Positions 6,443-28,709 are shown, counted from the first letter of the stretch. The stretch: 64,000 bases of DNA from a virus (IMGVR_UViG_2740892230_000016); one strand, 5' to 3'. Numbers and translations: made by a program. The notes: generated by a model not told the origin, from the letters alone.

Positions 6443-6509
6443 GCAACAAATGACCGGTTGAGAAGTTACTTTGCATACCATTACCTCCTGACAACGTAGG
6501 AGGGAACTT

Positions 6510-6839
6510 GTGCTTGACACACAGGAATTAGCTCCAGTTGCTATTGCGCTCCTGCTTTCAGTAATTGGTGGGATAGGCACGTTCCTGATGGATGTCCGAG
6601 ACGGTCGCCAGTCTGGCAATTTGTTAGGATTGGTTACGGAGATCTTTGTTGCAGTGACAGCTGGCGCGGTGGCGTACCTATTGGGGCAACACGAGGGCTG
6701 GGAGTTATCAATTACGTACTTAATGGTAACGATAGCCAGCAATAACGGTCATGAGGTGATTTCAGGGATGAAACGAGTGAATATCGATAGCATTCTGAAT
6801 GTTCTTACAAGTTTGGTGAAAAAGGGAGGCGGGAAATGA
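6510..6839 (+). CDS. lydA: Holin LydA-like
   Basis: 109 aa membrane protein; size and synteny match the first gene of the P1 darA operon; 4-bp overlap with the next gene. Confidence 0.55.
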   Translation: MLDTQELAPVAIALLLSVIGGIGTFLMDVRDGRQSGNLLGLVTEIFVAVTAGAVAYLLGQHEGWELSITYLMVTIASNNGHEVISGMKRVNIDSILNVLTSLVKKGGGK

Positions 6840-7279
6840 TTGGCTGGGGTGTATGCGTTCTTGCGTTAGCCTTAGCCGATCGCTATTTGCTAAAACGCAA
6901 GGACATCACGCACTTAGAACTTGGTGATGTGGAAATTAAACCGGGTTTCATCCGGGTGCCGTTCAAATACCGGTCTAAATTCCCGTTTTTGCGCGGCGCA
7001 ACGGTCAGATATTGGATCCGCGATGTTCAGAAGCCGACGACAGTGATTGAAGGCGAACAACGTTGTCTGACGTCGGCTGAACAGGGCGAAAACAGTGAAT
7101 GGTTGTACATACCCACTGAATATATGGGTAAAGGAGAGCGACTGTGGCATTTCAACGTCATGGTTACGCATGGCGACTCGTTCATTAACCCGTTGTATCG
7201 GATTTTCCCTGTTACTCAGCAAATCCGCAGAAGTTACGTAATAAATCTCGCACAGGATGTGTCAGATGACGAAAAATAA
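6836..7279 (+). CDS. lydB: Antiholin LydB-like
   Basis: 147 aa; size and position match P1 LydB. Confidence 0.5.
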   Translation: MIGWGVCVLALALADRYLLKRKDITHLELGDVEIKPGFIRVPFKYRSKFPFLRGATVRYWIRDVQKPTTVIEGEQRCLTSAEQGENSEWLYIPTEYMGKGERLWHFNVMVTHGDSFINPLYRIFPVTQQIRRSYVINLAQDVSDDEK

Positions 7280-7868
7280 GTATGCAACGGTCGATTTTGA
7301 CCAGGTTAATGAAAAGGGGCTGAAATCCCTTATCGCGGCGATCAATAAAACCGGGGTTACGGTAATTGAGGTTGACTCCAGCAACCGCGCAACAACGAAA
7401 GATGGCGTTAAAGTTAAAACCGCAAAGCTGGTTCTTAACGACGGACAAATTCTTGCCATACAGGTAAACGATACTGGCGATATATCGTCTGTGAAACTGA
7501 ATGGAAAAGCTATTCCTAACGCTCAGTCGCCGGATATCAAGACGCTTGGTACCGTCATGGGACAGGCGGCCCGCAAAAACTCCGCAAAATTCCAGAAATC
7601 ACTGATCGCCAAAGCGAAGCGTGTTGCCAATCCGGTAGACAAGAAACCGGCAGTTAAATCCAACTTTCAGCGCCTGCAAGAGGCAAAACAGCGGAATGCT
7701 CAGGTGGTTGCCGCTTATAAATCAGCTCAGAACTCGGTGTCTTTCAATCAACAGCAGATCACTGATTTGCGGGCGAAGCTGGATAAGGAGACAGGCCGAC
7801 TCAATAACGAAAAGGCCCGAAATGGCGAACTCAAACGCCGTCTTAAGCAACTGAAAGCAGGAAATTAA
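7257..7868 (+). CDS. hdf: Hdf-like protein of the darA operon
   Basis: 203 aa (about 22 kDa); position and size match P1 Hdf. Confidence 0.5.
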   Translation: MCQMTKNKYATVDFDQVNEKGLKSLIAAINKTGVTVIEVDSSNRATTKDGVKVKTAKLVLNDGQILAIQVNDTGDISSVKLNGKAIPNAQSPDIKTLGTVMGQAARKNSAKFQKSLIAKAKRVANPVDKKPAVKSNFQRLQEAKQRNAQVVAAYKSAQNSVSFNQQQITDLRAKLDKETGRLNNEKARNGELKRRLKQLKAGN

Positions 7869-7869
7869 C

Positions 7870-9789
7870 ATGGAACAGTTCAATATCAATAAAGGGGTGA
7901 CGATCAAGCCTGGGCTGGACGTGCTTCCCCCGCCAGTGACTGATGATGAATATCGCGCATTAATGGCCGGTGAGGACCGCTATCTGATGACGGAATCCAA
8001 CACCCTGGAGGAAATCGAGGCTACGTTCTTCTATGACACGCCGATCCACTGGTGTGCTACGGATTTACTGGAGGCGATTAGTTCTACTCGTTTGCAGTTA
8101 CACCGGACCATGCAGGCATTTGTCCGGGCATTGAACCAGAAGCTGAATGGTACCGGAATCTCTGCGGGAAGTGATAAAACGGGGGATGTGGCCCAGAGCG
8201 GCGCGCGCGCGATCGGCGGCGCTGAAATTGGCCGGGCACGTAACGTTAACGGGCTGCCGGTCCTGCCAGCCATTATTCCGCTCAGTGATGGTCAGACTAT
8301 CAGCATTCTGTTTCATAGCCCGACAGCGGAAAACCGGATCACCAATAGCGATACGCTGGTTGCTTTCCAGTTCTTACTGAATAAAAAAGACGTTACTCAC
8401 ACCGTTGCTCCGATGAGTGGACGTGATATGACGCTGGCGCAGGTCACCATGAAACTTGCCAACCTTGCAGAGAAAAACTCGGCAAAATTCCAGCGTGCAC
8501 AGAAGAAGAAAAAAGCCCTGGTTGATGAACTAACCCAACTACAGGCTGACAGTGATCAGAAAGAGGATGCCATGAGCGACCTCGCGGATCAGGTGGCAGC
8601 GGTAGAAGGGCAGAAGGCAGATCTGGAGCAGAAAATTAACGCTGTTGCATCGGAAGCGGATTCTCTTTATGAAGAGAATGAGCGTTTGCAGGGGGAGATT
8701 GATCGGCTCAATCGCACTGGTGGGCGCGATACCATTGCCCCTGCGGGGATGACTGGTGGGCACTCTCGCGCGCTGACGGATCGCCTTGCCAGTATCAAAA
8801 ATCGTATGCATATGGACGGGGAAGCGATGCTCAGTAATGGTGCATCAATGAAGCAATTCATTGGGGATGGCGAAGGGTATATCCAGTTAACCGATCCGGA
8901 TGGCAGCGTATACATGATCAAGGCTAAATCCATACAGGGTGTGGACATGGCAGATGCGATCGGCAAGCTGTTTAAAGCCTATAAAGCGGGTAATGTATCG
9001 GAATATCTGGTCCAACCAGAAGAACATAAACCGGAAAACGTCGAACCTGAACCAGCGGAGGATACCGGTAGCTCTTCGCCTGAACCAGAAGTCTCTGTAG
9101 GTGCATATCGATATGCCCTGCAAATGCGTCCGGCGGCCCCTGGCGCAATACCTGAAGGTAACAAAGCAATTCTGCCGCGCCCTGATGAAGGTGACCCGTA
9201 TTATGAATATGCACGCTACGGCATTGCTACTTACGATACCCCGCTTTCTGATCAGCAAATGAGTGAGTACGACCTGAAGTTATTGCCTCGCGAGGATTCT
9301 TTCGACTTCCTGGCGAAGACACTTACTAATGGTCCGTTTGGCAAATATGCACAAAAAGCTCTGGAGCTGGCCACCAGCTCACCAGACGAGTTCCGCGTAA
9401 TGCTGAAAACTCAGTTTCAAAAAACTTTCCCCAATATTGCGTTTCCTGGGGGCGCTGGCACCGAGAAAATGGTGCAGAGCATGATCAATGCATTGCAGGC
9501 CGAAGTCGGTGAGATTACTCAGCCAGAACCGGCCCCGGCACAGCCTGATGAAACGGTTAGCGAAGCAGATGCAGAGGCTAATAAAGCCATTGAATATCTC
9601 AATAACGTGATGGATATGCAAAGCACTGACATGGCGGAGATCCGTAACGCCCGGGGCAATGTCCGGGAAGCGATTGCAGCCCTTCAGGCTGCCGGACGTT
9701 TTGAGGAAAACGAAGAGCTGGTTAATGGCGCTGCTCGCCACCTGGCTGATCTGCTGGTAGCAATCCAGAAAGCGGGGGTAGCGGCATGA
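7870..9789 (+). CDS. darA: DarA-like antirestriction/capsid morphogenesis protein
   Basis: 639 aa, matching the recalled size of P1 DarA; coiled-coil region; operon context hdf-darA-ddrA-ddrB. Confidence 0.65.
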   Translation: MEQFNINKGVTIKPGLDVLPPPVTDDEYRALMAGEDRYLMTESNTLEEIEATFFYDTPIHWCATDLLEAISSTRLQLHRTMQAFVRALNQKLNGTGISAGSDKTGDVAQSGARAIGGAEIGRARNVNGLPVLPAIIPLSDGQTISILFHSPTAENRITNSDTLVAFQFLLNKKDVTHTVAPMSGRDMTLAQVTMKLANLAEKNSAKFQRAQKKKKALVDELTQLQADSDQKEDAMSDLADQVAAVEGQKADLEQKINAVASEADSLYEENERLQGEIDRLNRTGGRDTIAPAGMTGGHSRALTDRLASIKNRMHMDGEAMLSNGASMKQFIGDGEGYIQLTDPDGSVYMIKAKSIQGVDMADAIGKLFKAYKAGNVSEYLVQPEEHKPENVEPEPAEDTGSSSPEPEVSVGAYRYALQMRPAAPGAIPEGNKAILPRPDEGDPYYEYARYGIATYDTPLSDQQMSEYDLKLLPREDSFDFLAKTLTNGPFGKYAQKALELATSSPDEFRVMLKTQFQKTFPNIAFPGGAGTEKMVQSMINALQAEVGEITQPEPAPAQPDETVSEADAEANKAIEYLNNVMDMQSTDMAEIRNARGNVREAIAALQAAGRFEENEELVNGAARHLADLLVAIQKAGVAA

Positions 9790-10151
9790 CACTATCAGCT
9801 ATTGAGTTAATGGATCTCAGCGATAAGTTGGATGCTCTGATGTCCAAAGCGGCTACCGCGAGTGGCATGGAGTTGCTGGATATCAGCGATGAAATTGACC
9901 AGATCATGCAACAGATGGGGTACGGCGCGTCCGGCGGCAGTAGTGGCGAGGAAAAACAACCTTCGGAACATGATGGTGTGCCAAAACTGGTAGCTGATTT
10001 CCTGGCTGATAAATTCGTCGATCAGAGCACAGATGCATTTATCGGTACCTTGCAGGACTTGAGTCAATATGTTGGCACATACATCGATCTGGACCAGGTT
10101 AAACAACACACGGCGGCATGGATAGCCGCCAATATTAAAGAGGCAGCATAA
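9786..10151 (+). CDS. ddrA: DdrA-like protein
   Basis: 121 aa; overlaps the darA stop; size and synteny only. Confidence 0.5.
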   Translation: MTLSAIELMDLSDKLDALMSKAATASGMELLDISDEIDQIMQQMGYGASGGSSGEEKQPSEHDGVPKLVADFLADKFVDQSTDAFIGTLQDLSQYVGTYIDLDQVKQHTAAWIAANIKEAA

Positions 10152-10163
10152 GGCGTAACAGGG

Positions 10164-13151
10164 ATGAGCTTAAGCGATCAGGTGGTGATGGCCACCAGCA
10201 TAGAAACGCTGATCGAGCTGCTAAAAAACCTGCCCGATTACGGGCGGGTTTCGTATGTGGTGACAGCGAAGGGAGACGAGGTAAAAACAGCGTTTGATAT
10301 CGTCGATGCCTCAACTCTTTTGGTATCCAATACTCTGGACGGGAAAATTAATCCGGACTATCCCCAGGAACTTCAGCCGCGCGACCGGACCCGCGCATCC
10401 AGCCTTCTTCAGGTTAACCAGATATCCAAGGATTTGCGGCCTGCTCAGCTTACCGATTCCGGTCTATCCAGCCATGGCGCGCCGATAATTGGTGAGGACA
10501 ATGCCGTTGAGTCAGGTAATGGACGGACCATGGGGATCATTAAAGCCTATCAGGACGGCAATGCGGATCGGTATCGGGAGTACCTGATTGAACATGCGAC
10601 CGAATTCGGCATACGACCTGAAAAGGTTGAATCAATGACGGCTCCGGTACTGGTGCGCCGCCGGTTAACGAAGGTTGACCGCGTTCAGTTTGCCAAGGAC
10701 TCAAATATTTCTGATCTTCAGGAAATGGCAGCCAGTGAAAAGGCTTTTGTTGATGCCGACAACATAACTCCGGCGATGATGGCGCTGTTTAACCCGTCAG
10801 AAAGCGGAGATCTGCTTAGCCGCAGTAATGACGCGTTTATTCGCGGATTCATGACGCAAGTTGGTGCCACACAGGCGGCTGGCCTTGTAACTGAAGATGG
10901 GCGACCAACACGGCAACTTGTTGACCGTATACAAAACGCGATCTTTGCCAAGGCATATAAGGATGCGCGCCTGGTAAGGATGGTTGCAGAAGAACCTGAT
11001 CCGGATATGCGTAATGTTCTGACGGCGCTTAATGCGGCAGCCAATGATTTTGTCCAGATGCAGGCTTTATCAGGAGAAGCGCACAAGCAGGCTGTGACAA
11101 CTATTGTTGATGGCATTGAGACAGCGGATAGCCTCGATAAAAAGGCGCTGGCGGCATTGAAAGATGCGGTAGACCTGGTAAGGCAATCGAAGGAGTCAGG
11201 CCAGCATATTACCGATGTTATTGCTCAGGGGGATATGTTCAGCGAAACGGCCCCGGAAGTGAAAGCACTCGCGTTGTTCATCGTCGCGAATAACCGTAGC
11301 GCGAAGCGTATGGCCACCGCCTTTAAGTTGATGGCGCAACGTATCAATGATGAGTTACAGCACCAGGGCCAGGCGCTCGGGGATATGTTTGGCGGCGGCG
11401 ATGTGTCGTTACAGGATATCCTTCGCCAGGTGTCTCAGGAACTGGAATACGAAGGCATGCAAGGGATATCCGGCGGTCTTTTCGAGTCCGTTTCCGGCGG
11501 TAGTTACAACGGTGTTGCTCCGTATACCAGTTTGCTATTACATCGGGCATCCGGCATCAAAGACATTATTCATCTGATCAGGCTGCTTTCCCGCACAGAT
11601 CCCCAGGATGAACAGCTTGTACAAGTGCTTGCGCATTTTGTTCGAATGCCTGTTGCCGACGTGAAAAAATGGTGCCGATTATTCGGTATCAGCAATTCGT
11701 TACTTCGCGGCTTGTTAAATCACGCATCCTCCCTTGGGCGCGATGGCTTTGACGAGATAGCGCAGGCGATAAAAAACGGAGATATGCCACCAGCTATTGA
11801 CTGGTTTTCCATTCGCCCAACCAGGGTGAAAGCATTCCTTAGCGCGGCGCATTCGGCATCACCATTGGCAGAAATGGTTCAGAGGTTGTCGCTCATATTC
11901 ACAGACCATACCGCGTTGGGTGATCTGACTCTGGACGAGATGAAAGAAGCCTCCATTCAGTGGGCCGATCAACAAAATGAGGTTAACTCAGACTTCTTGC
12001 CAGCATTCAGGAAGGCCGTTGGTAAAGCGGATGATGCCCGTGGAATTCTGAAGGCATTTAAGGCATTGCAAAGTCGGGTTAATAAACATGTCGGTGATAT
12101 CGATGGGGTAACGGCGGAAGGCAGGGATATCCTTAAAGAGCACGGCATAACGCCAGAGTTTATTGATGAGATCAGGACGGATATGCAGCGTGAGGTCGTA
12201 TCGTCCCTGCAAATTGTAGCCAGAGCGTTGGCGGATGCTAATCCGAAGAGTGCGGCCATTGTTAACCGGGTTATTGGTGATATTGAAGCATCGGAGGGCA
12301 TGGGGGCGCTGAAACTCTTCCTTTCGCGAGCGTTTAATCCTAACGGCAATATTCTCCCTGGCATTATTGGTGAGGCTAAAAAGTATGTCAGTGAAGAAGA
12401 ACTTGAGCAGCTTGACCAACTACTTAAGCGATTCTCATACAACCCGCAGACACGCTGGCAAATGAATCAGCGAAGTATGGGTTCGGTCCACGAGAAAGTG
12501 TTATCTGCCATGAACAGTGCGATCGCAAACTCATCCGTATCTGAAGAAAAAGCTCTTGAGTGGGCCGACTCTTTTATCACGGAAGAAGTGGAAGAAGCCC
12601 GCGCTGGACAGAATGGTGGGATAGACCTGCGCAAGGAACTTGCTGATATTTATCGCCTGACCGGCGGTAAAATTTCGACCTTATCAAAGGTGGTTCACCA
12701 CAAGGGAAGGGCATATGCAAATCTTAATGGTGTTGTTGCTGTCAATTTGAACGATGAAAATGCAAGTGCACTGTGGCACGAGCTGGGTCATCATCTTGAG
12801 TACAGTAACCCTGGTTTGTTAGAGAAAGCCCGGTCATTCCTGAAGGCCAATGTTGAAGGGGATAAGCCATCTTTCGTTAATATCGGTGGGCGTGGCAAGC
12901 CTGAATGGTGCTTCAGATCTCGATTGAGTAATATTTATATGGCGAAGGTATACCCGCCAGTCTCAGTGAGTAACTCCGGGAAAATTCGGCAGAAATCACC
13001 GACCATTTCCAAAACGTCAGCAACGGAAGTATTCTCTATGGCTCTTCAGTTGTATCATGACAAAGAGGCCGCTGCCGCATCACTGATGAATGGTGACGGA
13101 TTGCTGGAACTGTTATTAGGTGTGGCAAAGGAGCTAAATAATGCAGATTAA
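10164..13151 (+). CDS. ddrB: DdrB-like large antirestriction-associated protein
   Basis: 995 aa (about 109 kDa), matching the recalled size of P1 DdrB; last large gene of the operon. Confidence 0.6.
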   Translation: MSLSDQVVMATSIETLIELLKNLPDYGRVSYVVTAKGDEVKTAFDIVDASTLLVSNTLDGKINPDYPQELQPRDRTRASSLLQVNQISKDLRPAQLTDSGLSSHGAPIIGEDNAVESGNGRTMGIIKAYQDGNADRYREYLIEHATEFGIRPEKVESMTAPVLVRRRLTKVDRVQFAKDSNISDLQEMAASEKAFVDADNITPAMMALFNPSESGDLLSRSNDAFIRGFMTQVGATQAAGLVTEDGRPTRQLVDRIQNAIFAKAYKDARLVRMVAEEPDPDMRNVLTALNAAANDFVQMQALSGEAHKQAVTTIVDGIETADSLDKKALAALKDAVDLVRQSKESGQHITDVIAQGDMFSETAPEVKALALFIVANNRSAKRMATAFKLMAQRINDELQHQGQALGDMFGGGDVSLQDILRQVSQELEYEGMQGISGGLFESVSGGSYNGVAPYTSLLLHRASGIKDIIHLIRLLSRTDPQDEQLVQVLAHFVRMPVADVKKWCRLFGISNSLLRGLLNHASSLGRDGFDEIAQAIKNGDMPPAIDWFSIRPTRVKAFLSAAHSASPLAEMVQRLSLIFTDHTALGDLTLDEMKEASIQWADQQNEVNSDFLPAFRKAVGKADDARGILKAFKALQSRVNKHVGDIDGVTAEGRDILKEHGITPEFIDEIRTDMQREVVSSLQIVARALADANPKSAAIVNRVIGDIEASEGMGALKLFLSRAFNPNGNILPGIIGEAKKYVSEEELEQLDQLLKRFSYNPQTRWQMNQRSMGSVHEKVLSAMNSAIANSSVSEEKALEWADSFITEEVEEARAGQNGGIDLRKELADIYRLTGGKISTLSKVVHHKGRAYANLNGVVAVNLNDENASALWHELGHHLEYSNPGLLEKARSFLKANVEGDKPSFVNIGGRGKPEWCFRSRLSNIYMAKVYPPVSVSNSGKIRQKSPTISKTSATEVFSMALQLYHDKEAAAASLMNGDGLLELLLGVAKELNNAD

Positions 13152-17066: not shown

Positions 17067-19797
<2,731 letters not shown>

Positions 19798-19863
19798 TTA
19801 ATTAGAATAATTCACATCGTGTTTGAACGGAATTTAACACTAGTCACTTGTTAAGGATTACCA

Positions 19864-22800
19864 ATGAACAAGCTATCTATGGGGGTGTTTCGCTGTTCAA
19901 GTGTCAGCGAAATATTGAAATACATTAGGGCAATAACATCTCACCGAGCGCCGATTAAATATGGCGTGGAAAAGGTGGAAGGCAAAAGCTATGACCGACT
20001 GCGCCGGGAGGCGAATCAGAAGGCGATAGATTTGCTTAATTCGCTGGTGGACGGCGCGACACTGACAGATGAACAGCGCCAGATCCTGGCTGGGTACACC
20101 GGTGAAGGCGGCATTGGCGGGTCCGTCTCCGAATATTACACACCAAAGCCGATCGCTGAAGGTGTCTGGGAGATCATGAAGCTCTACGGCGCGGACGTAG
20201 GTAACACTCTGGAACCATCGGCGGGAACCGGCGTTTTTAATGAGACAAAACCGGTTGGTACGGTGATGACCGCGACTGAGATCAGCAGTGTTTCCGGTCG
20301 TATAAACCAGTTGTTACACCCGGAAGACAGCGTACAGATTTCCCCGTTCGAACAGCTGGCTGTAAGCACGCCTAACGATTCATTCGACCATGTTGTGGGT
20401 AACGTTCCGTTCGGCGGTCGTGATAACACACGCAACATCGATAAGCCTTACGCAGAAGAAACGGACATGGGTTCTTACTTCATGCTCCGCATGCTGGACA
20501 AAATAAAGCCAGGCGGATTCATGTGTGTGATTGTGCCGCCGTCCATTGTTTCAGGTTCAAACATGAAGCGGTTACGCCTGCGCCTATCCCGTAAAGCTGA
20601 ATTTCTTGGCGCTCACCGCTTGCCTACCGGTACTTTTGACGCAAACGGGACCAGTACAGTCGTTGATGTGGTGCTGATGCGCAAACATCCGGCGGAGATG
20701 GCTGAGAAAATCCCCCTGGTGGATGAAAGCACTCTTGAATCGGCAAATGTGCTTTGGCCAACGTTTATTTCTGGCAAGTGGTTTGAAAAGGACGGTCGCC
20801 GGTTTGTTCATGGTACCCAGGAAAAGGGCTTCCAGGGGCGTATTGAGGTTCGTGCCGACGGGCAGATTGATAACCAGGCTCTTAAAGCGAAGCTGATTCA
20901 TCGTTTCGAAAGTCGTATCGACTGGTCTTTGCTCGATATGGCTGAACCGTCACCGACCGCAGATGTTGTTGATGAAGGGGAAATGCGCCTGATTAATGGC
21001 GTATGGCAAAAATATGCTGGTGGTCGCTGGATTGAAGCTGATGCCGGGAAGGAACTTAAGATCGATGCTGCCAGTTATGGCGCGGATAGCTGGGAGGCTC
21101 TTCAGCGTAACCTGACTACAACAGAAGGCCGTCTCGGCATGACATTTACCCAGATGGCAAATGTCCGCGATAAGTACACCACATCAATCAGCGACGATAT
21201 GGTGCAGCTGGTGGACTGGATTAACAGCCAGCCTGAAAAATACCGTGAACGCTTGTATCGCGGGGCGATGATTGGCCGGATGTTAATTGAATATCAGGAC
21301 ATGAAGGCCGCCGGGCATAGTGCTGAACAAATCGAACAGCAGCGCCTTTCTCTGGTATCCCGTTTGCAGGCAGAGATTGACCGTTTTGGTAACCCCGGTC
21401 GCGGCCCGATAGCGAAATTATCGGGGAGCGGTGCGCGCGCCTGGTTTGCTTTCCGTGGTGCAATTAAGCTGGATGGCACTATTTCTGACGAGCTGGCAGG
21501 AAAGCTGGTTACGCATGATTCCAGCGCAAGTTATGACTCCACCAGCTATCAGGACACCCTGCGTTATCTCTACAGTGATCTCACTCGCGATCCAATCCAG
21601 CTCGATGATTTCCGCCTTGCGTTTACCGGCGAACTGCCAGCCAGTGATGAAGAGTTGCTTAATTTATTGGCCAGCACCCCTGGTATTGCGGTTTCACCGT
21701 ATGGCGGGATTGTTCCGTTCGCCCGCGCCACCAGCGGCGACATTAACGAGATAGTGGCTCCAAAACAGGAATTCCTCGCCACGCTCCCCGACGGTCCAGT
21801 AAAGAACAACGTCCTTAATCAGCTGGCAGCGATCGAAGAGAAGCGCATCAAGACGCCAGCAGAGAATATCCGGTTTAAGCTCAATAGCCGTTGGTTCGAC
21901 CGTTCCGTCATTCTGGAATTTTTGCAGGAAAACGGCTATCCGGATCTGCGCTATGTGCAGTCAGTGCAGCTTGAAGGCGACGAAATGGTTTCTGACACCT
22001 ATCACGGTGGTGATGGTCTGTTCGTCGGGCACCGATACGGTGTCGTCCAGCGCAAGGATAAAGAAACAGGCGAGATCCGCTACGAGTGGGACCGTAAATC
22101 AGGTGAAAACGCGACCGGGTTCCCGGCACAGCTGGAAAAGTATCTCAATGGTGCGCGTATCGGTGGCAAAGATAGCGCGACGGCTAACGGCTACCGCGAG
22201 CAGATGGCACTGCTTGAGGACCAGTTCAATAAGTGGATCAAGACGCACGATCGCTACGATGAGCTGGTTGCCAAATACAACGATGTGTTCAATAGCAATA
22301 TCCCGTATGAACACTCTGGCGATCCGCTTGGGTTGAAGGGATTAAGCGGTAAGCGCCAGCCATTTGATTACCAGAATAGCGAGGTGCGCCGACTGTCCGA
22401 AGATGGGCGCGGCATCCTGGGCTTCGGCACCGGGCTGGGTAAAACCACGACCGCGCTGGCGCTTGAGGCGTTCAACTATGAGAACGGTCGTTCCACCCGT
22501 ACTGCGTATGTAGTGCCTAAATCAGTGCTGGAAAACTGGTATTACGAAGCAAAAGAGTTTCTGAGTGAAGAGGCATTCAGTAACTACCTGTTCGTCGGTC
22601 TTGATGTGCTGATGGATGGCGATCAGATTCGCCAGGTGCCGGTGCTCGATGAGAACGGTAAACCTGTTCTTGGTACTGATGGCACTCCAGTTATGCGCGA
22701 TGCTCTTAAGCTGGCAGATGAAGCCACTATCACGGCGCGGATGAACGCGATCCCGCACTCAAATTACCGTGCAGTCGTGTTTACCAAAGAACAATACGCC

Positions 22801-25800
22801 CGCATTCCGCTACGTGATGACACCGTAGATGAGCATGCACAGGATATGCTTTATGACTTCGTTGCCGCCGGACGCGTAGCCAGCGCAATGGACTCCGACT
22901 CCCACCGCAAAGAGGCCGCGCGTCGCCGGGTATTGTCGGAGTATTCAGATACCGGCACCGAAAAAGCAGAGAAGTATCCGTACTTTGAGGATATGGGCTT
23001 CGATAGTGTGATCGCTGACGAAGGTCACAACTACCGCAATAGCTATAAAAATGGTCGCGAAGCGTCACAACTGGCCTATCTGCCCACCAGCGCGGTGGCG
23101 CAATCGGCGCGAGATATGGCAATTAAAAACGCGTACCTGATGAAAAAGAATGGCGGGCGCGGGCCGGTTCTCCTGACTGCAACGCCAGTCGTTAACACCC
23201 CGATCGATGCATACAACATGCTTTCTCATGTTCTGCCGAAGGAATACTGGCAGAACATGGGGATCTACGGTCCTGATGACTTCGTTAAATTCTTCGGCAA
23301 GACCAGGCTGGAAACGGTACAGAAAATCAGCGGTGAAGTTGAAGAAAAAATGGCGCTGGTGGGCTTTGAAAACCTTGATGCGCTGCGCGGTATATTCCAT
23401 CGCTGGGTAACGCTTAAAACGGCGGAAGACGTTAAGGATACCGTGGAGATCCCGGAGCTGGACGAACACCAGCAGGATGCACCACTTACTGAAGAACAAC
23501 TGGCGGCGTATGAAGAATTGCGTCAGCAGGCGGAAGCGGCGGCCAAAGCCAACAATGGCGTAACGACCTCGGTCAATGAAGACGGCGTGATTGAGCACGA
23601 GAAAGCCCGTCCGATCTTCTCAATAATCAGGGATATGGACCGCGTATGTACTGACATGGACCTGTACTATCGCCGGATCACCTATCGTTTCCTGCCGGAG
23701 TACGCCGATGCGGTGCAGCAGCTGGCGGACAGTTTGCCTAAACAAGCCACCAGCGAATACGACGACAGTGATGATTCAATCACGCAGCAATCGCAATACT
23801 CCCTGATAGATAAGGGCGAGTTTATTCAGTTGCAGGTTCCGGAAGCGTTCGAGCAGGAAGTGAATAAGCGCCTGGCCAGGTTTGGCATTGACGAACAGAC
23901 CGTAACTCACCCCGTTACGCCCAAATACGCGAAGCTGATCGCCACGCTGAAGGAGTTTTTCCCGGAAGGTAAGCAAATCATCTTCACCGATGAAAAAACG
24001 CAGCACCAGAAGCTCAAGCGCATTATCTGCAATGCTCTAAACCTTGAACCTTCAAAGGTGGGGATCCTGAATGCTCAGACGGTTGCCGAGGCAGGTAAAA
24101 CCGGTAAGAAACTGAAAGCGGTTAAACCGCCGAAAGAGCTACCGGATGAACCAACAGATGCACAGATAGCGAAATACAACGAGCAAATGGCTCTGCATGA
24201 CGCCTATATCGCGCAGCAAAATGAAATGTCGTTGGGCGGTCTGGAAAAGATTGCAGCCGACTTCCAGGAGGGCCGGACTCCGATCATCATCTGCAACAAA
24301 AAGGCAGAGGTGGGTATCAACCTGCATCGAGGAACGACGGATATCCACCACCTGACGTTGCCGTGGACACCAGCCAGTATCGCACAACGTAACGGTCGCG
24401 GTGCACGAGTTGGCTCCAACCGTGCAAGCGTTCGCGTTCACTACTACTGCGGCAAGGGGTCTTTCGATGAATACCGACTGAAGACGCTGAAGCGTAAAGC
24501 AGGCTGGATCTCCGATATCCTCCGTTCAGATAAGTCAGAAATGGAGAACGCCGACGCCAATGACATGATCGAAATGCAGATGTATACCGCGAAGGATGAC
24601 GGCGAACGTCTGGCAATGATGCAGGTTCAAATGGATAAGGCGAAAGCTGCGAAACGCGCTCGCCAGAAAGAACAGGCTACTATCGACCTTCAGAACTACA
24701 TCAAGGCGCAGCACGCAGCTGGCGAGGATGTGGAGGTACTTACCGCTGAATTAGAGCGAAGCAAAGCGGAACTTGAAAAGACCACCGCCGAGGTAGCTAA
24801 ATTCAAACAGGCGGCAATGGCCAAGGCAGCGGATAACGCAGACTGGAAGGCCCGCTGGGGGAGTGTCCATCACACAGACCGTATGTTGTTAGCACAGTAT
24901 CGCGCGTCGTTGAAAAGCGCCATTCAGCGCAAGGCTAATATCTCTCAGGCCATCTCACGCTATGAGAAATTATTGAACCGTACTCAGAAGGCCGCGACGG
25001 ATATCAAACGCCTGCGCCCGCTGGTGGAGGATGCAATAAATAAAGGCATTCTGGATATTGATCCTGACCTGGTTAACCATGCGAGTGAGTTCCTTGTTAT
25101 CGGCGATCGCTCATGGCGTGTAGGCCAATACTACGATTGTGCCGGTGATATCGTTCGCATTAAGTCGCTGGACTTCGACAGCCAGCGCGCAGACGTGGAG
25201 ATCATCTTTACCTTCAAAGGCACCAAATCGGGTAACTGGGATGTGAAGACGCTGGATAAACAGGTTGATGTAACTCCCGATGAAGATGCTGTTATGCAGA
25301 AAATCAGTGGTGGCGTCTCCATCGCCGGGATTAACGACATCATTTCCTGTGACGATTTCTACCGTTTCCAGCAGCGCGGCATGATCAAAATCACTGACTC
25401 ATACGGCGTTCAGACTACAGAGTCAGGCTATAGCATTGATTTTGTTGGCACCTATACGGACCCACTGAAGCATGCGGTTTACCCGGATCGCCGTGACGGC
25501 GCGCTGAAGTCGTCAATTGCAAAATGGGTGCTTGGTATGATGTCGGAAGGGAATAACCGCCAGATCCGTTCGGCAGAAACATTCCTGGTTGAATTGTTTG
25601 GCTTCAATTATGGCGATGTAATCGCGTCATACGGAGATACGCTATCCCCTGAAGCAATTCAGGAGAAAATAGCGGATGCGATCACCAGAATGCCGGAAAA
25701 AACAAGCCAGGGGTCTACTCGTAACGGGGATTCTGAACTTGAAGTCACCAATGCCATTTTCGGTACCAATGAGTTCCGGGCGTCAGATTATGAGATCACC

Positions 25801-26631
25801 ACAGCACAGTTTGGCACCATTGGCATTTACAGCAATAAAGACGAGATCAAGCAGGCAATGGACGCAGCAAGCGCGCGCATCGCAGCAGAACGGGAAGCCA
25901 ATCTGAATCATGCAGTCGCCGCGCTGACTCAATCGTGGGTAACAGCAATCAGGGAGGCCGCCACCACAGGGAAAATCACACCTGCAATTGCGGATGTCGT
26001 AAACGACGGCTCTAAATTTATGGATGCCTATAAAATGGATTCGGTGCAGTTGCCATCAGCCTATGGCCAACTCAGCTATCGCATGACCTACAACCTGGTA
26101 TCAATGTTTTCCGACCTTGCCATCCTTGGGCTGGTGGATCTTAACGAGGTTACGCCGGAATTGCTCAGCATGCGCAAGAATCATGTGGAGATATTGCAGA
26201 GAATTAACACGGTTCTTGCCGGGCGCACCGATGAAGAGAAACAGGCCGACGCTGATCGGATAAACCTGGCCCTTGGCAACATCACGGAGGAAGAGATTGC
26301 CGCCAGAAACGAGAAACAAGAAGAGTTATCATCAATACAGGGTGATGCCACCAGCATAGCTCAGTCTCTTGGTCTGAATTATCGCGTATCCACCGCCGAC
26401 CTGAAGATGATGTACGCACCAAAATTCGCCGCTGGCGAGGTATTTGGGCTTCAGGAAGCCTCAGGCATGAAAGGCGTTCTTTTCCGTGCGAAAGACGCAA
26501 TCAAGGCGAAATTCGGCGCTCGCTGGCTGCCAGCGAAGGCGAAGAACAGCGATTTCCCGGGTAACTGGTGGATTATCGAGACAAAACACAACGTGGCGGA
26601 CGTTCTGGCCGTCATCCAACAATACGCATAA
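19864..26631 (+). CDS. darB: DarB antirestriction protein (N6-adenine methyltransferase plus SF2 helicase fusion)
   Basis: 2255 aa, matching the recalled length of P1 DarB; MTase-like motifs EPSAGTGVF and VGNVPFGG; helicase motifs GTGLGKTT, ADEGHNYRN and QRNGRGAR. Confidence 0.85.
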   Translation: MNKLSMGVFRCSSVSEILKYIRAITSHRAPIKYGVEKVEGKSYDRLRREANQKAIDLLNSLVDGATLTDEQRQILAGYTGEGGIGGSVSEYYTPKPIAEGVWEIMKLYGADVGNTLEPSAGTGVFNETKPVGTVMTATEISSVSGRINQLLHPEDSVQISPFEQLAVSTPNDSFDHVVGNVPFGGRDNTRNIDKPYAEETDMGSYFMLRMLDKIKPGGFMCVIVPPSIVSGSNMKRLRLRLSRKAEFLGAHRLPTGTFDANGTSTVVDVVLMRKHPAEMAEKIPLVDESTLESANVLWPTFISGKWFEKDGRRFVHGTQEKGFQGRIEVRADGQIDNQALKAKLIHRFESRIDWSLLDMAEPSPTADVVDEGEMRLINGVWQKYAGGRWIEADAGKELKIDAASYGADSWEALQRNLTTTEGRLGMTFTQMANVRDKYTTSISDDMVQLVDWINSQPEKYRERLYRGAMIGRMLIEYQDMKAAGHSAEQIEQQRLSLVSRLQAEIDRFGNPGRGPIAKLSGSGARAWFAFRGAIKLDGTISDELAGKLVTHDSSASYDSTSYQDTLRYLYSDLTRDPIQLDDFRLAFTGELPASDEELLNLLASTPGIAVSPYGGIVPFARATSGDINEIVAPKQEFLATLPDGPVKNNVLNQLAAIEEKRIKTPAENIRFKLNSRWFDRSVILEFLQENGYPDLRYVQSVQLEGDEMVSDTYHGGDGLFVGHRYGVVQRKDKETGEIRYEWDRKSGENATGFPAQLEKYLNGARIGGKDSATANGYREQMALLEDQFNKWIKTHDRYDELVAKYNDVFNSNIPYEHSGDPLGLKGLSGKRQPFDYQNSEVRRLSEDGRGILGFGTGLGKTTTALALEAFNYENGRSTRTAYVVPKSVLENWYYEAKEFLSEEAFSNYLFVGLDVLMDGDQIRQVPVLDENGKPVLGTDGTPVMRDALKLADEATITARMNAIPHSNYRAVVFTKEQYARIPLRDDTVDEHAQDMLYDFVAAGRVASAMDSDSHRKEAARRRVLSEYSDTGTEKAEKYPYFEDMGFDSVIADEGHNYRNSYKNGREASQLAYLPTSAVAQSARDMAIKNAYLMKKNGGRGPVLLTATPVVNTPIDAYNMLSHVLPKEYWQNMGIYGPDDFVKFFGKTRLETVQKISGEVEEKMALVGFENLDALRGIFHRWVTLKTAEDVKDTVEIPELDEHQQDAPLTEEQLAAYEELRQQAEAAAKANNGVTTSVNEDGVIEHEKARPIFSIIRDMDRVCTDMDLYYRRITYRFLPEYADAVQQLADSLPKQATSEYDDSDDSITQQSQYSLIDKGEFIQLQVPEAFEQEVNKRLARFGIDEQTVTHPVTPKYAKLIATLKEFFPEGKQIIFTDEKTQHQKLKRIICNALNLEPSKVGILNAQTVAEAGKTGKKLKAVKPPKELPDEPTDAQIAKYNEQMALHDAYIAQQNEMSLGGLEKIAADFQEGRTPIIICNKKAEVGINLHRGTTDIHHLTLPWTPASIAQRNGRGARVGSNRASVRVHYYCGKGSFDEYRLKTLKRKAGWISDILRSDKSEMENADANDMIEMQMYTAKDDGERLAMMQVQMDKAKAAKRARQKEQATIDLQNYIKAQHAAGEDVEVLTAELERSKAELEKTTAEVAKFKQAAMAKAADNADWKARWGSVHHTDRMLLAQYRASLKSAIQRKANISQAISRYEKLLNRTQKAATDIKRLRPLVEDAINKGILDIDPDLVNHASEFLVIGDRSWRVGQYYDCAGDIVRIKSLDFDSQRADVEIIFTFKGTKSGNWDVKTLDKQVDVTPDEDAVMQKISGGVSIAGINDIISCDDFYRFQQRGMIKITDSYGVQTTESGYSIDFVGTYTDPLKHAVYPDRRDGALKSSIAKWVLGMMSEGNNRQIRSAETFLVELFGFNYGDVIASYGDTLSPEAIQEKIADAITRMPEKTSQGSTRNGDSELEVTNAIFGTNEFRASDYEITTAQFGTIGIYSNKDEIKQAMDAASARIAAEREANLNHAVAALTQSWVTAIREAATTGKITPAIADVVNDGSKFMDAYKMDSVQLPSAYGQLSYRMTYNLVSMFSDLAILGLVDLNEVTPELLSMRKNHVEILQRINTVLAGRTDEEKQADADRINLALGNITEEEIAARNEKQEELSSIQGDATSIAQSLGLNYRVSTADLKMMYAPKFAAGEVFGLQEASGMKGVLFRAKDAIKAKFGARWLPAKAKNSDFPGNWWIIETKHNVADVLAVIQQYA

Positions 26632-26664
26632 CAGGAGCGCCCGGTTCGCCGGGCGTCGCATAAT

Positions 26665-27105
26665 ATGGCCACACTATCTGATACAATAAAACCGAATAAA
26701 ACATATCTTGAGGCGGTACTGCGTACGGCGTTGTTAGGAAAGACAGAAGACGAATACGTTGATTTCTTCCTGTCAGGGCTACGCGGGCGATTACTGAAAA
26801 ATCCCCGCCTGTACCGCAGCTATGGTCCATACTGGCCGGAAATTAAAAAATTATTACTGGAGCGCGGTTATGGTAATTTCGGTCGTCTCGTTGACCGTGA
26901 CGTTCGCAAAATTTACCGTTATGACCGCCCGGCGCTGACGCTCATAGCTGCGACGCTCTACAGCCAGGAGCGTTTTGATAATGGTCAGATATACTCAGCC
27001 TGGCATTTACTGCCAGTGCCTGAAGAGGTTGACGACCAGGACTATGAGTTTGAGTCTTACGATTTGGAAGTTGAAGCCTTAGCACAGGCTGGAGAGAAAA
27101 CTTGA
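26665..27105 (+). CDS. ulx: Ulx-like protein
   Basis: 146 aa between darB and the 82-aa gene; synteny only. Confidence 0.45.
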   Translation: MATLSDTIKPNKTYLEAVLRTALLGKTEDEYVDFFLSGLRGRLLKNPRLYRSYGPYWPEIKKLLLERGYGNFGRLVDRDVRKIYRYDRPALTLIAATLYSQERFDNGQIYSAWHLLPVPEEVDDQDYEFESYDLEVEALAQAGEKT

Positions 27106-27401: not shown

Positions 27402-28709
27402 TTACACTATATTTTTCACTATAGAATTGGCGTCATCCAGTACGCCAAGTTCCTCGATGTGTTTTTTTATAATTAATCGATTTGAAGCAATGATTGTAGA
27501 CCATCGCGTTTCCCAAGCTCTATAAGCATGCCACGAATAACCTAACCGTCTTTCTTTGCTCATATTGGACATTGAGTATTCGACTGCTTCTAAATATGCC
27601 TTTTCATATTTAGTGCCAGCAATTTCTATGATACTTCCAAAATATATAAGCCATTTTGCAAGTTGTTCATATTGCTCCCAAGCGCCGCTCTCTCTTGTTA
27701 AATTTCTTTTTTGTTCTATTATCCTCTTAAAAAATTCAACAACTCTGCTGTCACTCCAATCCAAACCTTCAGATATAATTGAAGAAATTATCTGATAAAA
27801 TGAGTCTTCTAATCTAATATATTCATTCTTATATGTATGAGAACCTACAATAACTTTTCTAATGTTTTCACGAGCTCTCTCCATTATATCTTCTATGAGC
27901 AGTATCTTACTGCTCAGTCGATGAAAGAAATCATCTATTTCCGTATTATCAATTACCCTTATTCCAAAACAATAAAAGTAATAGTCCTTCATGTCTTGAC
28001 TTACTTCGCCATGAGATATGAAGAATATATTAGAGCACAGTGCATTATCTTTAGAAAATGTCTTATAACTATTTATAATTGCCTTAAGGTTTGTATCACT
28101 TAAAGAATATCCTAATATCACAACTGTATTTTCATGTAGTATCGTACTAAGTTTTTGTGAAAAATAGGTGTCAGAGTTTATAAACCTGAAGTAGTCTTCT
28201 GAAGTAACAACCATGTTTTTTGGTGAATCAATAGAACCATGGACATGATATATTTTAACTTTAGATGAGTATTTAGGAATAGGTAAGCCCGGGGTAATAG
28301 ACTGTACTTCCTCATCTCCAGTTAAGCATTCAGCTAACTTGTCATAATTTGTTGTAATGACACGGAATGAATTTTTTTGAAAAAAATCTTTTATATTTGA
28401 TATATCTTCTCCAAGTTGAATTGGAGATATGATCTCAACAATTTCATCATAAATCGACTTACCCTCAATATTGAGCTTCAAAGATAGTATTTGTGCGGCT
28501 TCTTCAAGGCTCAATGCTGGTGGTTTATCATCAGGGAATAACGTGTCTTCCAACTGTTTGGCGTTGTGAACTTTGCTGCAAACTTTTTTTAATAGTTCTT
28601 TCCACGTTGGAGCTTCGCCGTTCGAGACTGCCTTTGAAAAGCCAGTCCCGGTAAATAGACAAAGCCTGCTTGTAGCGGCAGCGTATGCTAACTCAACATA
28701 TTCGCTCAT
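27402..28709 (-). CDS. SIR2-like (sirtuin/DHS-like NAD-binding) protein with an alpha-helical C-terminal domain; candidate NADase defence effector
   Basis: 435 aa; SIR2 motifs at ThsA-like spacing: LFTGTGFS (about residue 18), VITTNYDKLAE (about 119), YHVHGSID (about 157), VVILGYSLSDTNL; region is visibly AT-rich against the flanking backbone; occupies the res/mod position of P1. Confidence 0.6.
   Translation of the reverse strand: MSEYVELAYAAATSRLCLFTGTGFSKAVSNGEAPTWKELLKKVCSKVHNAKQLEDTLFPDDKPPALSLEEAAQILSLKLNIEGKSIYDEIVEIISPIQLGEDISNIKDFFQKNSFRVITTNYDKLAECLTGDEEVQSITPGLPIPKYSSKVKIYHVHGSIDSPKNMVVTSEDYFRFINSDTYFSQKLSTILHENTVVILGYSLSDTNLKAIINSYKTFSKDNALCSNIFFISHGEVSQDMKDYYFYCFGIRVIDNTEIDDFFHRLSSKILLIEDIMERARENIRKVIVGSHTYKNEYIRLEDSFYQIISSIISEGLDWSDSRVVEFFKRIIEQKRNLTRESGAWEQYEQLAKWLIYFGSIIEIAGTKYEKAYLEAVEYSMSNMSKERRLGYSWHAYRAWETRWSTIIASNRLIIKKHIEELGVLDDANSIVKNIV

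What the first reader, a model, noticed from the sequence alone, without database searches (positions are those of the whole stretch)
19864..26631. DarB: 2255-aa methyltransferase-helicase fusion divergent from the portal gene, with the darA operon 7 kb away
The N-terminus carries adenine-methyltransferase-like motifs and the middle has complete SF2 helicase motifs, followed by a long C-terminal region of about 900 aa with no recognisable motif. Together with 6510..13151 (lydA, lydB, hdf, darA, ddrA, ddrB) this forms the capsid-packaged antirestriction system of P1. The element therefore carries anti-defence cargo alongside the candidate SIR2 defence gene.
Basis: partly seen in the sequence, partly recalled or inferred. 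Interest (0 to 1): 0.35.

Follow-up and report, generated by a model that had tools for sequence, protein, structure and literature searches.

The report
DarB antirestriction gene of P1-like plasmid
This is the well-known darB gene of a phage-P1-like plasmid prophage, an intact and near-identical copy of a virion-packaged protein that protects injected phage DNA from host restriction enzymes, so the finding is correct but ordinary.

Summary
The ORF at 19864..26631 (+) is real: 2255 aa with no interruption. It is 98.8% identical (2228/2255 aa, same length) to phage P1 DarB. The whole neighbourhood is collinear with P1. The portal gene prt lies divergently 75 bp upstream, ulx and lxc follow darB, and the lydA-lydB-hdf-darA-ddrA-ddrB operon lies 6.7 kb upstream at 97.5-100% aa identity. 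The methyltransferase and SNF2-type helicase motifs are all present and are invariant across 25 relatives of 31-49% identity. Selection is strongly purifying (dN/dS 0.09).

- ulx (26665..27105), a sixth Dar component, was omitted.
- lydA and lydB are lysis genes that merely share the operon.
- The unannotated C-terminus is about 740 aa, not 900.
- Methyltransferase motif IV is NVPF, not NPPY; this is a family-wide trait.

The C-terminus folds confidently in prediction (pLDDT 80-84) as a coiled-coil hairpin followed by globular domains. It matches no Pfam family, PDB sequence or Foldseek structure. It is also the fastest-evolving part (dN/dS 0.41, against 0.03-0.04 in the enzyme cores). A SIR2-like gene does sit next door, in place of P1's EcoPI res/mod.

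Verdict: already known, low interest.

The parts
19864..26631 (+). darB, 2255-aa methyltransferase / SNF2-helicase antirestriction protein
   Evidence: ORF confirmed. 2228/2255 aa identical to P1 DarB, same length, no stop codons. Full-length match to phrog_1685. The exact sequence is in NCBI, in a 90%-identity cluster of 16,340 members.
19864..19953 (+). DarB aa 1-30, the N-terminal capsid-targeting sequence
   Evidence: No amino-acid difference from P1 in aa 1-250. In P1 the N-terminal 30 residues are sufficient to target a reporter protein into the capsid (PMC9024508). The function here is inferred from identity.
20119..20739 (+). gamma-class N6-adenine methyltransferase domain (aa ~86-292): YYTP 91-94, motif I EPSAGTG 117-123, motif IV GNVPF 179-183
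   Evidence: Pfam N6_Mtase and Eco57I. PDB sequence hits to type I HsdM, including EcoKI M. T93, P94, P118, S119, G123, N180 and P182 are invariant in 25 relatives.
22360..24453 (+). SWI2/SNF2-type SF2 helicase/translocase module (aa ~833-1530), with a large insert between motifs III and IV
   Evidence: Pfam SNF2-rel_dom, ResIII and Helicase_C. G857, G859, K860, D1052, E1053, H1055, A1106, T1107, Q1508, G1511, R1512, G1513 and R1515 are invariant.
24598..25041 (+). predicted long coiled-coil hairpin (aa ~1579-1726)
   Evidence: AlphaFold2 model m4f412915fa29 has helices 59-99, 103-139 and 149-206, with pLDDT about 90. Foldseek finds only generic SMC/Rad50/HlyD coiled-coil look-alikes, none significant.
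25042..26628 (+). C-terminal globular region (aa 1727-2255): a small beta-barrel, helical domains and a terminal alpha/beta domain; no known fold
   Evidence: Model mad210ccc9358 has pLDDT 83.7. The best PDB Foldseek hit has E 0.07 and TM <= 0.15. No Pfam or PDB sequence hit. Only G1913 is invariant here. dN/dS is 0.41.
   Evidence: 144/146 aa identical to P1 Ulx. phrog_1629 'Ulx-like anti-restriction', E 4.5e-66. It lies immediately downstream of darB in relatives, with Ulx identity as low as 28-35%.
19778..19849 (.). prt/darB divergent control region: positions of P1-annotated PdarB (19778-19808, +) and late promoter LPpro (19831-19849, -)
   Evidence: Window 19760-19880 is base-for-base identical to P1. 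Promoter coordinates are transferred from the P1 annotation. They are predictions in that record and were not tested here.
18079..19788 (-). prt, the portal protein gene, divergent from darB
   Evidence: 562/569 aa identical to P1 Prt. Divergent prt/darB synteny is conserved in distant relatives.
6463..6481 (+). late promoter LPdar, upstream of lydA
   Evidence: Window 6440-6515 is identical to P1. Coordinates are transferred from the P1 annotation.
6510..7279 (+). lydA (holin) and lydB (antiholin): lysis genes sharing the dar operon, not antirestriction components
   Evidence: 100% and 98.6% aa identity to P1. Pfam Phage_holin_3_3 and LydB.
7257..13151 (+). hdf, darA, ddrA and ddrB: Dar components needed for head-size control and for ordered packaging of the Dar proteins
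   Evidence: 99.0, 99.1, 97.5 and 98.3% aa identity to P1. Pfam DarA_N and DarA_C hit DarA, DarA_N hits Hdf, and ddrB-ParB hits DdrB. NCBIfam anti_RE_DarA scores 1093 bits.
27402..28709 (-). SIR2-like candidate defence gene (context only), in the slot of P1 EcoPI mod/res
   Evidence: Pfam SIR2_2, E 9.8e-24. PADLOC PDC-S25 at 2.3e-28 and ThsA at 1.3e-17. Annotated 'SIR2 family protein' in pSBF45b, which is 99.9% identical here.

Best explanation
The ORF is darB of a P1-like (Punavirus, IncY-type) plasmid prophage of Escherichia/Salmonella. Together with hdf, darA, ddrA, ddrB and ulx it makes up the P1 Dar (defence against restriction) system.

Shown in P1 by others, and inferred here from near-identity:
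- DarB is made late in infection.
- It is directed into the procapsid by its N-terminal ~30 residues, as the last of an ordered series (Hdf/DarA first, then DdrA, DdrB, DarB/Ulx), at about 40 copies per head.
- It is ejected with the DNA.
- It protects that same DNA molecule, in cis only, against type I restriction by EcoB and EcoK.

The biochemical step has not been defined in the literature. My inference rests on the strict conservation of both catalytic cores. I propose that DarB loads on the entering DNA and uses its SNF2-type ATPase to translocate along the duplex. It would then either methylate adenines non-specifically or dislodge or stall type I complexes before they cleave (roughly 50:50 between these two). 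The fast-evolving, fold-orphan C-terminal region would act as a non-catalytic scaffold or partner-binding part rather than a third enzyme.
For: Identity:
- 98.8% aa identity to P1 DarB with equal length.
- 98.2% DNA identity to the P1 reference records and 97.9-98.5% to other P1-like phages.
- The exact protein is in NCBI, in a cluster of 16,340 members.
- darB is present in 806 PLSDB plasmids.

System completeness:
- All six Dar genes are intact at 97.5-99.1% identity.
- The LPdar region and the prt/darB control region are identical to P1.

Synteny: prt, darB and ulx stay adjacent, with DarA/DdrA/DdrB within 10 kb. This holds in viral contigs whose DarB is only 28-44% identical.

Enzymatic cores are maintained:
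- All methyltransferase and helicase catalytic motifs are invariant in 25 relatives of 31-49% identity.
- dN/dS is 0.025 for the methyltransferase and 0.038 for the helicase.
- None of the 27 substitutions relative to P1 falls on an invariant or >=90% conserved column.

C-terminus as a non-catalytic part:
- Only G1913 is invariant after N1562.
- There is no conserved acidic, His, Cys or Ser constellation.
- A coiled-coil hairpin is predicted.
- dN/dS is 0.41.

Literature: six-protein system, ordered packaging, capsid-targeting sequence and copy number (PMC9024508; PMC12810830); action in cis (PMC12707154); proposed methylase-SWI2/SNF2 partnership (PMC5512222).
Against: - No experiment was done on this element. 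Packaging and antirestriction are inferred from sequence identity only.
- The molecular mechanism of DarB is explicitly described as undefined (PMC11109961; PMC9009780).
- Methyltransferase motif IV is NVPF rather than NPP(Y/F), so catalytic competence is unproven.
- Sequence-specific methylation cannot easily explain protection against enzymes with different recognition sites.
- The anti-EcoKI effect of cloned darB turned out to be a DNA artefact (Chi plus EcoKI sites triggering restriction alleviation) and not a protein effect (PMC11109961). There is therefore no clean in-trans assay of the protein yet.
Confidence: 0.93

Rival explanations
1. DarB protects DNA purely as a stoichiometric internal head and DNA-coating protein (physical occlusion). 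Its methyltransferase is catalytically dead and the helicase motifs serve only for DNA binding.
For: - Motif IV is NVPF instead of NPPY/F.
- About 40 copies are packaged per head (PMC9024508).
- The occlusion hypothesis is cited in a review (PMC12707154).
- Protection is in cis only.
Against: - N180, P182 and the SAM-binding motif I, together with the Walker A, DEGH and arginine-finger motifs, are invariant across relatives of 31-49% identity.
- These regions show the lowest dN/dS in the protein, 0.025-0.038. That is the expected pattern for maintained catalysis, not for a scaffold.
- About 40 molecules cannot coat roughly 94 kb of DNA.
Confidence: 0.2
2. The gene is a defence enzyme rather than an anti-defence enzyme: a methyltransferase-helicase of the type I / type ISP / DISARM / BREX kind that the plasmid uses against other phages.
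For: Weak partial hits to DrmD, ZorD, DpdE, PglX and type I methyltransferase models in PADLOC and NCBIfam. A SIR2 defence gene lies next door.
Against: - All of these hits cover only the generic SNF2 or methyltransferase cores and lie far below the curated cut-offs (DrmD 45 bits against a cut-off of 610).
- There is no nuclease or specificity domain.
- The gene is 98.8% identical to a protein shown to be a virion component with antirestriction function (PMC9024508).
- Linkage to the portal gene, ulx and darA is conserved in phage genomes.
Confidence: 0.02
3. The copy in this window is a decaying remnant, as are many truncated or internally deleted darB alleles in public data, and no longer functions.
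For: - Many in-frame internal deletions, and DarA::DarB and DdrB::DarB fusion proteins, exist in databases.
- Only 441 of the 806 plasmids with a darB match carry at least 80% of the gene.
- Relic 3' fragments occur on unrelated plasmids.
Against: - Here the ORF is full-length with no frameshift or stop codon.
- 91 synonymous against 27 non-synonymous codon changes relative to P1, giving dN/dS 0.09.
- No change falls at a conserved column.
- All partner genes and promoters are intact.
Confidence: 0.03

Closest known systems
DarB of Escherichia phage P1 (AAQ13985.1, AF234172) and of P7, SJ46, RCS47
   Same: Same length (2255 aa) and 98.8% aa identity. The N-terminal 250 aa, including the capsid-targeting sequence, are identical. 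Same motifs, same divergent prt neighbour, same downstream ulx-lxc, same 11 Chi sites within the gene.
   Different: 27 amino-acid substitutions, 14 of them in the last 530 residues. Most belong to a common second haplotype (IRSAETFLVE instead of VRLAEVFLTE at 1901-1910). Only S1914F and A1941T look private to this copy. Downstream of lxc this element carries a SIR2-like gene instead of EcoPI mod/res.
E. coli plasmid pSBF45b (NZ_CP067234, IncY, 95 kb) and about 440 other P1-like plasmids in PLSDB
   Same: Same gene order from pro to c1. The ulx-SIR2-mat-ref stretch is 99.9% identical. There darB is annotated 'N-6 DNA methylase'.
   Different: darB itself differs at 132 nt and 33 aa, no closer than P1. 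The region is therefore a recombination mosaic among P1-like plasmids.
Methylase / SWI2-SNF2 dyad of 'polyvalent proteins' (Iyer et al. 2017, PMC5512222), e.g. the giant DarB-like proteins of Bcep22-like and Parlo-type podophages (phrog_10089)
   Same: An N-terminal helical LPD36-like segment with a GxG[GAS] motif (GEGG, aa 80-83). A TP motif before the methyltransferase (YYTP 91-94). An EcoKI/TaqI-like adenine methyltransferase followed by an SNF2-type ATPase with inserts.
   Different: Those proteins are 3,000-12,000 aa long with many additional effector domains. The P1-type protein carries only the dyad plus its own lineage-specific C-terminal region, found in about 127 representative clusters.
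Type I R-M HsdM (EcoKI M; PDB 2ar0, 2y7c, 7eew) and the Sulfolobus SNF2/Rad54 ATPase (1z63)
   Same: These are the only solved structures detectable by sequence. They cover the methyltransferase core (aa 86-267) and the helicase C-lobe (aa 1460-1560).
   Different: E-values are only 1e-4 to 6e-3. DarB has no HsdS or HsdR partners and no nuclease, and it carries an extra ~540-aa linker and ~740-aa C-terminus without counterpart.

Membership tests
P1-type DarB (Punavirus defence against restriction B) | Full-length collinear homology to P1 DarB | tested here: met
   2228/2255 aa identical with no gaps. phrog_1685 match covers residues 1-2255 of the protein and positions 1-2278 of the 2278-position profile.
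P1-type DarB (Punavirus defence against restriction B) | N6-adenine methyltransferase motifs: SAM-binding motif I and catalytic motif IV N-x-P-[FY] | tested here: met
   EPSAGTG at 117-123 and GNVPF at 179-183. Pfam N6_Mtase scores above its gathering cut-off. N180 and P182 are invariant and F183 is >=90% conserved in 25 relatives. Note that the first proline of the canonical NPPY is Val throughout the family.
P1-type DarB (Punavirus defence against restriction B) | Complete SWI2/SNF2-type SF2 helicase motifs I, Ia, II, III, V and VI | tested here: met
   GTGLGKT, VVPKS, DEGH, TATP, AEVGINL and QRNGRGAR. Their key residues are invariant in the family. Pfam SNF2-rel_dom, ResIII and Helicase_C all score above cut-off.
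P1-type DarB (Punavirus defence against restriction B) | N-terminal capsid-targeting sequence (residues 1-30) | tested here: met
   The sequence is identical to P1 in aa 1-250. The function is established for P1 only (PMC9024508).
P1-type DarB (Punavirus defence against restriction B) | Genomic context: adjacent to the portal gene, followed by ulx, with hdf-darA-ddrA-ddrB in the same genome | tested here: met
   conserved in distant relatives.
P1-type DarB (Punavirus defence against restriction B) | Incorporated into virions and protects DNA in cis against EcoB/EcoK | not testable with these tools
   Needs virion proteomics and plating-efficiency assays of deletion mutants.
Polyvalent-protein methylase/SNF2 dyad (Iyer et al. 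2017) | LPD36-like N-terminal helical segment with a GxG[GAS] motif, plus a TP motif preceding an EcoKI/TaqI-like methyltransferase fused to an SNF2 ATPase | tested here: met
   GEGG at 80-83 (G80 invariant; G82 and G83 >=90%). YYTP at 91-94 (T93 and P94 invariant). HsdM is the best PDB sequence relative. No LPD36 profile was available to score (no Pfam hit in aa 1-149).
Defence methyltransferase-helicase systems (type I/III/ISP R-M, DISARM DrmD, BREX PglX, Dpd) | Score above the curated family cut-off, and presence of a nuclease/specificity module or the partner genes of the system | tested here: not met
   DrmD scores 45 bits against a cut-off of 610, and DpdE 31.6 against 500. PADLOC hits cover only generic cores. 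No nuclease domain. The neighbours are virion genes.

The most novel reading that the evidence does not exclude
The last ~530 residues of DarB (aa 1727-2255) are confidently predicted to fold but have no relative in Pfam, PDB or BFVD. They evolve about ten times faster, relative to synonymous change, than the enzyme cores. They could form a previously undescribed fold that is the actual specificity determinant of antirestriction. For example, it might be a module that docks onto type I HsdR/HsdM (or BREX PglX) and is under diversifying selection in an arms race, with the coiled-coil hairpin acting as a spacer arm.
Probability: 0.15. Interest if true: 0.45.

Novelty: already known. Interest (0 to 1): 0.08.

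Why it matters
The finding adds nothing new. It is one more copy of a gene described in 1987 and present in thousands of E. coli and Salmonella assemblies.

Its value is as annotation. It fixes the identity of the element as a P1-like plasmid prophage. It also shows that the element carries a complete, apparently functional six-gene Dar system directly beside a SIR2-type defence gene that replaces P1's EcoPI restriction-modification genes.

The one open scientific question it touches is how DarB works, which the literature still calls undefined. Here I add only these points:
- The non-canonical NVPF catalytic motif is family-wide and conserved.
- Both enzyme cores are under strong purifying selection.
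- The C-terminal third is a fold-orphan, fast-evolving region without conserved catalytic-type residues.

Tried and rejected
1. **Known domain in the C-terminal 735 aa.**
   - Pfam at E <= 1 gave only sub-threshold noise: Par3_HAL_N_term, and CENP-Q (which reflects coiled-coil composition).
   - The PDB sequence search gave nothing beyond aa 1560.
   - NCBIfam and PADLOC gave nothing there.
2. **Fold recognition.**
   - AlphaFold2 model of aa 1521-2255 (pLDDT 80) against PDB: only generic coiled-coil look-alikes, E >= 0.19, TM <= 0.13.
   - The same model against BFVD: a tape-measure-like helical protein at E 8.7e-4 but TM 0.13 and rmsd 47 Å. I reject this as a low-complexity helical match.
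   - Re-modelling only the globular part, aa 1727-2255 (pLDDT 84), to remove coiled-coil masking: best PDB hit E 0.07, TM <= 0.15 (PLP enzymes, SGF29 Tudor). Rejected.
3. **PF28555, listed for some database relatives.** Mapping the fragments shows it must lie within about aa 960-1190 (the helicase N-lobe or its insert), not in the C-terminus. It is absent from the local Pfam copy.
4. **The cluster of substitutions at 1901-1993 as a sign of something special.** It is enriched (Fisher p = 0.002). However, it is a common second haplotype shared by many database alleles, i.e. ordinary recombination among P1-like plasmids.
5. **Pfam scan of the 25-sequence alignment.** Invariant motifs from the alignment itself were used instead.
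6. **Piya et al. 2017 (PMC6011833).** Could not be read. Its content is cited only through papers that quote it.

Full report
**Observation.** The ORF listing returns an ATG-initiated ORF at exactly 19864..26631 on the + strand, 2255 codons long.
- A 569-aa ORF lies on the opposite strand at 18079..19788, 75 bp upstream.
- A series of co-oriented ORFs lies at 6510..13151.

**Identity.** Megablast of 19000-27500 against GenBank phages finds 18 records covering at least 80% of the query at 97.9-98.6% identity. They include phage P1, P7, SJ46 and RCS47, with the features annotated darB, prt, ulx and lxc. I fetched the P1 reference (AF234172) with its curated annotation and translated both sequences. 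Identities to P1 are as follows.
- DarB: 2228/2255 residues identical, equal length, no stop codons.
- Dar components: Hdf 99.0%, DarA 99.1%, DdrA 97.5%, DdrB 98.3%, Ulx 98.6%.
- Neighbouring genes: LydA 100%, LydB 98.6%, Prt 98.8%, Lxc 100%.

The 121 nucleotide differences in darB fall in 118 codons, 91 synonymous and 27 non-synonymous. The prt/darB intergenic region, which carries P1's annotated PdarB and LPpro, is base-for-base identical to P1. So is the LPdar region upstream of lydA. The exact protein sequence is already in NCBI and belongs to a 90%-identity cluster of 16,340 members named 'N-6 DNA methylase' or 'helicase'. darB DNA occurs in 806 PLSDB plasmids, 441 of which carry at least 80% of it.

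The closest overall record for the flanking DNA is the 95-kb IncY plasmid pSBF45b of E. coli. There the ulx-SIR2-mat-ref stretch is 99.9% identical. darB itself, however, differs at 132 nt, no closer than P1. The region is thus a recombination mosaic among P1-like plasmid prophages.

**Anatomy of the protein.**
- aa 1-30: identical to the P1 capsid-targeting sequence (PMC9024508).
- aa ~60-95: a helical segment with GEGG (80-83) and YYTP (91-94). These match the LPD36 GxGU motif and the TP motif described for this family (PMC5512222).
- aa ~86-292: an EcoKI/TaqI-like N6-adenine methyltransferase. Support comes from Pfam N6_Mtase and Eco57I and from PDB sequence relatives that are type I HsdM proteins. 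Motif I is EPSAGTG. Motif IV is GNVPF, not the canonical NPPY/F.
- aa ~293-832: a linker with no family match.
- aa ~833-1530: an SNF2-type ATPase with motifs I GTGLGKT, Ia VVPKS, II DEGH, III TATP, V AEVGINL and VI QRNGRGAR.
- aa 1531-2255: no Pfam, NCBIfam, PADLOC or PDB sequence match.

The unannotated tail is about 740 aa.

**Family-wide conservation.** An exhaustive HMMER search with the C-terminal 735 aa against 1.84 billion representative proteins found 127 clusters at E <= 1e-3. Nearly all sit at the C-terminal end of proteins of 2,000-2,500 aa. This tail is thus a lineage-specific part of a DarB-like family and not a mobile domain. Most hits cover only the first ~420 residues of the query.

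I aligned 25 full-length relatives of 31-49% identity.
- Invariant methyltransferase residues: T93, P94, P118, S119, G123, N180, P182.
- Invariant helicase residues: G857, G859, K860, D1052, E1053, H1055, A1106, T1107, Q1508, G1511, R1512, G1513, R1515.
- The consensus for motif IV is GNVPFG, so the Val-for-Pro change is a conserved family trait and not decay.
- Beyond N1562 only G1913 is invariant. No conserved Asp, Glu, His, Cys or Ser constellation exists there.

Column conservation falls from 0.5-0.7 in the enzyme cores to 0.23-0.37 in aa 1576-2175. It rises slightly at the extreme C-terminus.

Nei-Gojobori estimates against P1 give these dN/dS values:

| Region | dN/dS |
|---|---|
| Whole protein | 0.09 |
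| Methyltransferase part | 0.025 |
| Linker | 0.11 |
| Helicase | 0.038 |
| Coiled coil | 0.054 |
| aa 1727-2255 | 0.41 |

None of the 27 substitutions hits an invariant or >=90% conserved column. The local cluster of changes at 1901-1993 is statistically enriched (Fisher p = 0.002). It corresponds, however, to a common alternative haplotype seen in many database alleles.

**Structure of the tail.** An AlphaFold2 model of aa 1521-2255, built on 18 diverse sequences, is fairly confident (mean pLDDT 80.1). It shows these elements in order:
- a long helical hairpin (aa ~1579-1726);
- a small beta-barrel (aa ~1743-1801);
- a mixed and helical region;
- a compact alpha/beta end domain.

Foldseek against the PDB gives only insignificant coiled-coil look-alikes. 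Against BFVD it gives a spurious tape-measure-like helical match (TM 0.13). A second model of the globular part alone (aa 1727-2255, pLDDT 83.7) also finds nothing in the PDB (best E 0.07, TM <= 0.15). The tail therefore remains without a recognisable fold.

**Context in distant relatives.** A scan of IMG/VR with the family alignment found DarB relatives of 28-44% identity in viral contigs, many of them 83-97 kb long. tblastn with the window's proteins shows two patterns.
- In most of these contigs the portal gene lies divergently upstream and an Ulx homologue (28-50% identity) lies immediately downstream.
- DdrB, DdrA and DarA homologues lie within 10 kb.

A second arrangement places darA, darB, ulx and prt on one strand. 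The darB-ulx pair and its link to head genes are thus conserved features of the system.

**Mechanism.** In P1 the Dar system consists of Hdf, DarA, DdrA, DdrB, DarB and Ulx.
- All six are virion head proteins by mass spectrometry.
- They are incorporated in order, with DarB last, at about 40 copies per head.
- The first 30 residues of DarB suffice for capsid targeting (PMC9024508; PMC12810830).
- The proteins are co-ejected with the DNA.
- Protection works only in cis (Iida et al. 1987, as quoted in PMC12707154).
- DarB, Ulx and DdrB are the components linked to protection against EcoB and EcoK, and DarA to protection against EcoA and StySA (PMC12810830; table in PMC9024508).

The molecular mechanism is explicitly called undefined (PMC11109961; PMC9009780). 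The apparent anti-EcoKI activity of cloned darB was shown to be caused by Chi and EcoKI sites in the DNA, not by the protein (PMC11109961). Consistent with that paper, this darB carries 11 Chi sites.

Both catalytic cores are conserved and strongly constrained. My preferred inference is therefore that DarB translocates along the entering DNA using ATP. It would then either methylate adenines or displace or stall type I complexes. The C-terminal region would serve as a non-catalytic arm or interaction module. Pure occlusion remains possible but fits the conservation pattern less well.

**Comparison and novelty.** By every sequence-testable criterion this is a member of the P1 DarB family. It is not a member of any defence methyltransferase-helicase family: those scores lie far below the curated cut-offs and there is no nuclease. 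The finding is already known.

This includes the remark about neighbouring defence cargo. The ORF at 27402..28709 (-) has a SIR2_2 domain (E 9.8e-24) and PADLOC PDC-S25/ThsA-like hits. It replaces P1's EcoPI mod/res.

Three corrections apply. ulx was omitted. lydA and lydB are lysis genes. The tail is about 740 aa, and motif IV is NVPF.

Interest is low. The only residual curiosity is the fold-orphan, fast-evolving C-terminal third of a protein whose mechanism is still unknown.

Noticed in passing
window 27402-28709 (-): A 435-aa SIR2_2-domain protein (Pfam E 9.8e-24; PADLOC PDC-S25 2.3e-28, ThsA 1.3e-17, LmuA-like 2e-16). It sits exactly where P1 carries the EcoPI mod/res genes, between lxc and mat. 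46 PLSDB plasmids carry at least 80% of the 26600-30400 stretch. This slot looks like an exchangeable defence-cargo site in P1-like plasmids.
   Followed up: partly
window 13481-14575 (-): A 364-aa ORF occupies the place of P1 isaB plus IS1, between hxr and isaA. There is no Pfam, NCBIfam or PADLOC hit. It gives a full-length match to phrog_5902 (unknown function) and a weak match to the terminase-large-subunit ATPase family phrog_2 (E 1.2e-7). It could be another variable cargo gene.
   Followed up: partly
window 5802-42624: 39 Chi sites (GCTGGTGG) against 1.7 expected from shuffles. None lies in the last 21 kb of the window (42625-64000). 11 lie inside darB (6 on +, 5 on -). From about 30.8 kb to 42.6 kb nearly all are on the - strand. 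Chi enrichment is known for P1. The sharp boundary and the strand bias were not examined.
   Followed up: partly
database proteins P0001-P0041 (relatives of window 24424-26628): Public assemblies hold many in-frame internal deletions of DarB that keep the C-terminus (e.g. aa 1-260 joined to aa 1478-2255). They also hold DarA(1-474)::DarB(1672-2255) and DdrB(1-314)::DarB(1745-2255) fusion proteins, one of them seen on 12 contigs of up to 88 kb. These imply recurrent deletions between the co-oriented dar operon and darB in natural P1-like plasmids.
   Followed up: partly
window 22663 (darB nt ~2800); L043 5079-8969: Many plasmids match darB only from nt 2800 onward, and their proteins start near DarB aa 926/960. 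One example is a 'helicase-related protein' followed by ulx and lxc on an IncHI1B plasmid, next to a RelE/Phd toxin-antitoxin pair and an autotransporter gene. It appears to be a relic of a P1-like element with a recurrent breakpoint.
   Followed up: partly
window 17600-39400 vs L002 (pSBF45b): Mosaic relatedness: the ulx-SIR2-mat-ref stretch is 99.9% identical to pSBF45b, while the adjacent darB differs at 132 positions, as far from pSBF45b as from P1. This points to recent recombination with a breakpoint near the 3' end of darB.
   Followed up: partly
L017, L018, L020, L022, L023 (IMG/VR contigs): In a subset of distant DarB-encoding viral contigs the order is darA ... darB - ulx - prt, all on one strand, instead of the divergent prt/darB layout of P1. 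In L018, L019 and L022 no Ulx homologue was detected by tblastn.
   Followed up: no
window 16119-16775 (+) and 17067-18116 (-): The mechanical ORF calls for lyz (218 aa, TTG start) and pro (349 aa, TTG start) are longer than the annotated P1 proteins (185 and 339 aa). The shared parts are 100% and 99.7% identical. The difference comes from upstream alternative start codons, not from real extensions.
   Followed up: yes
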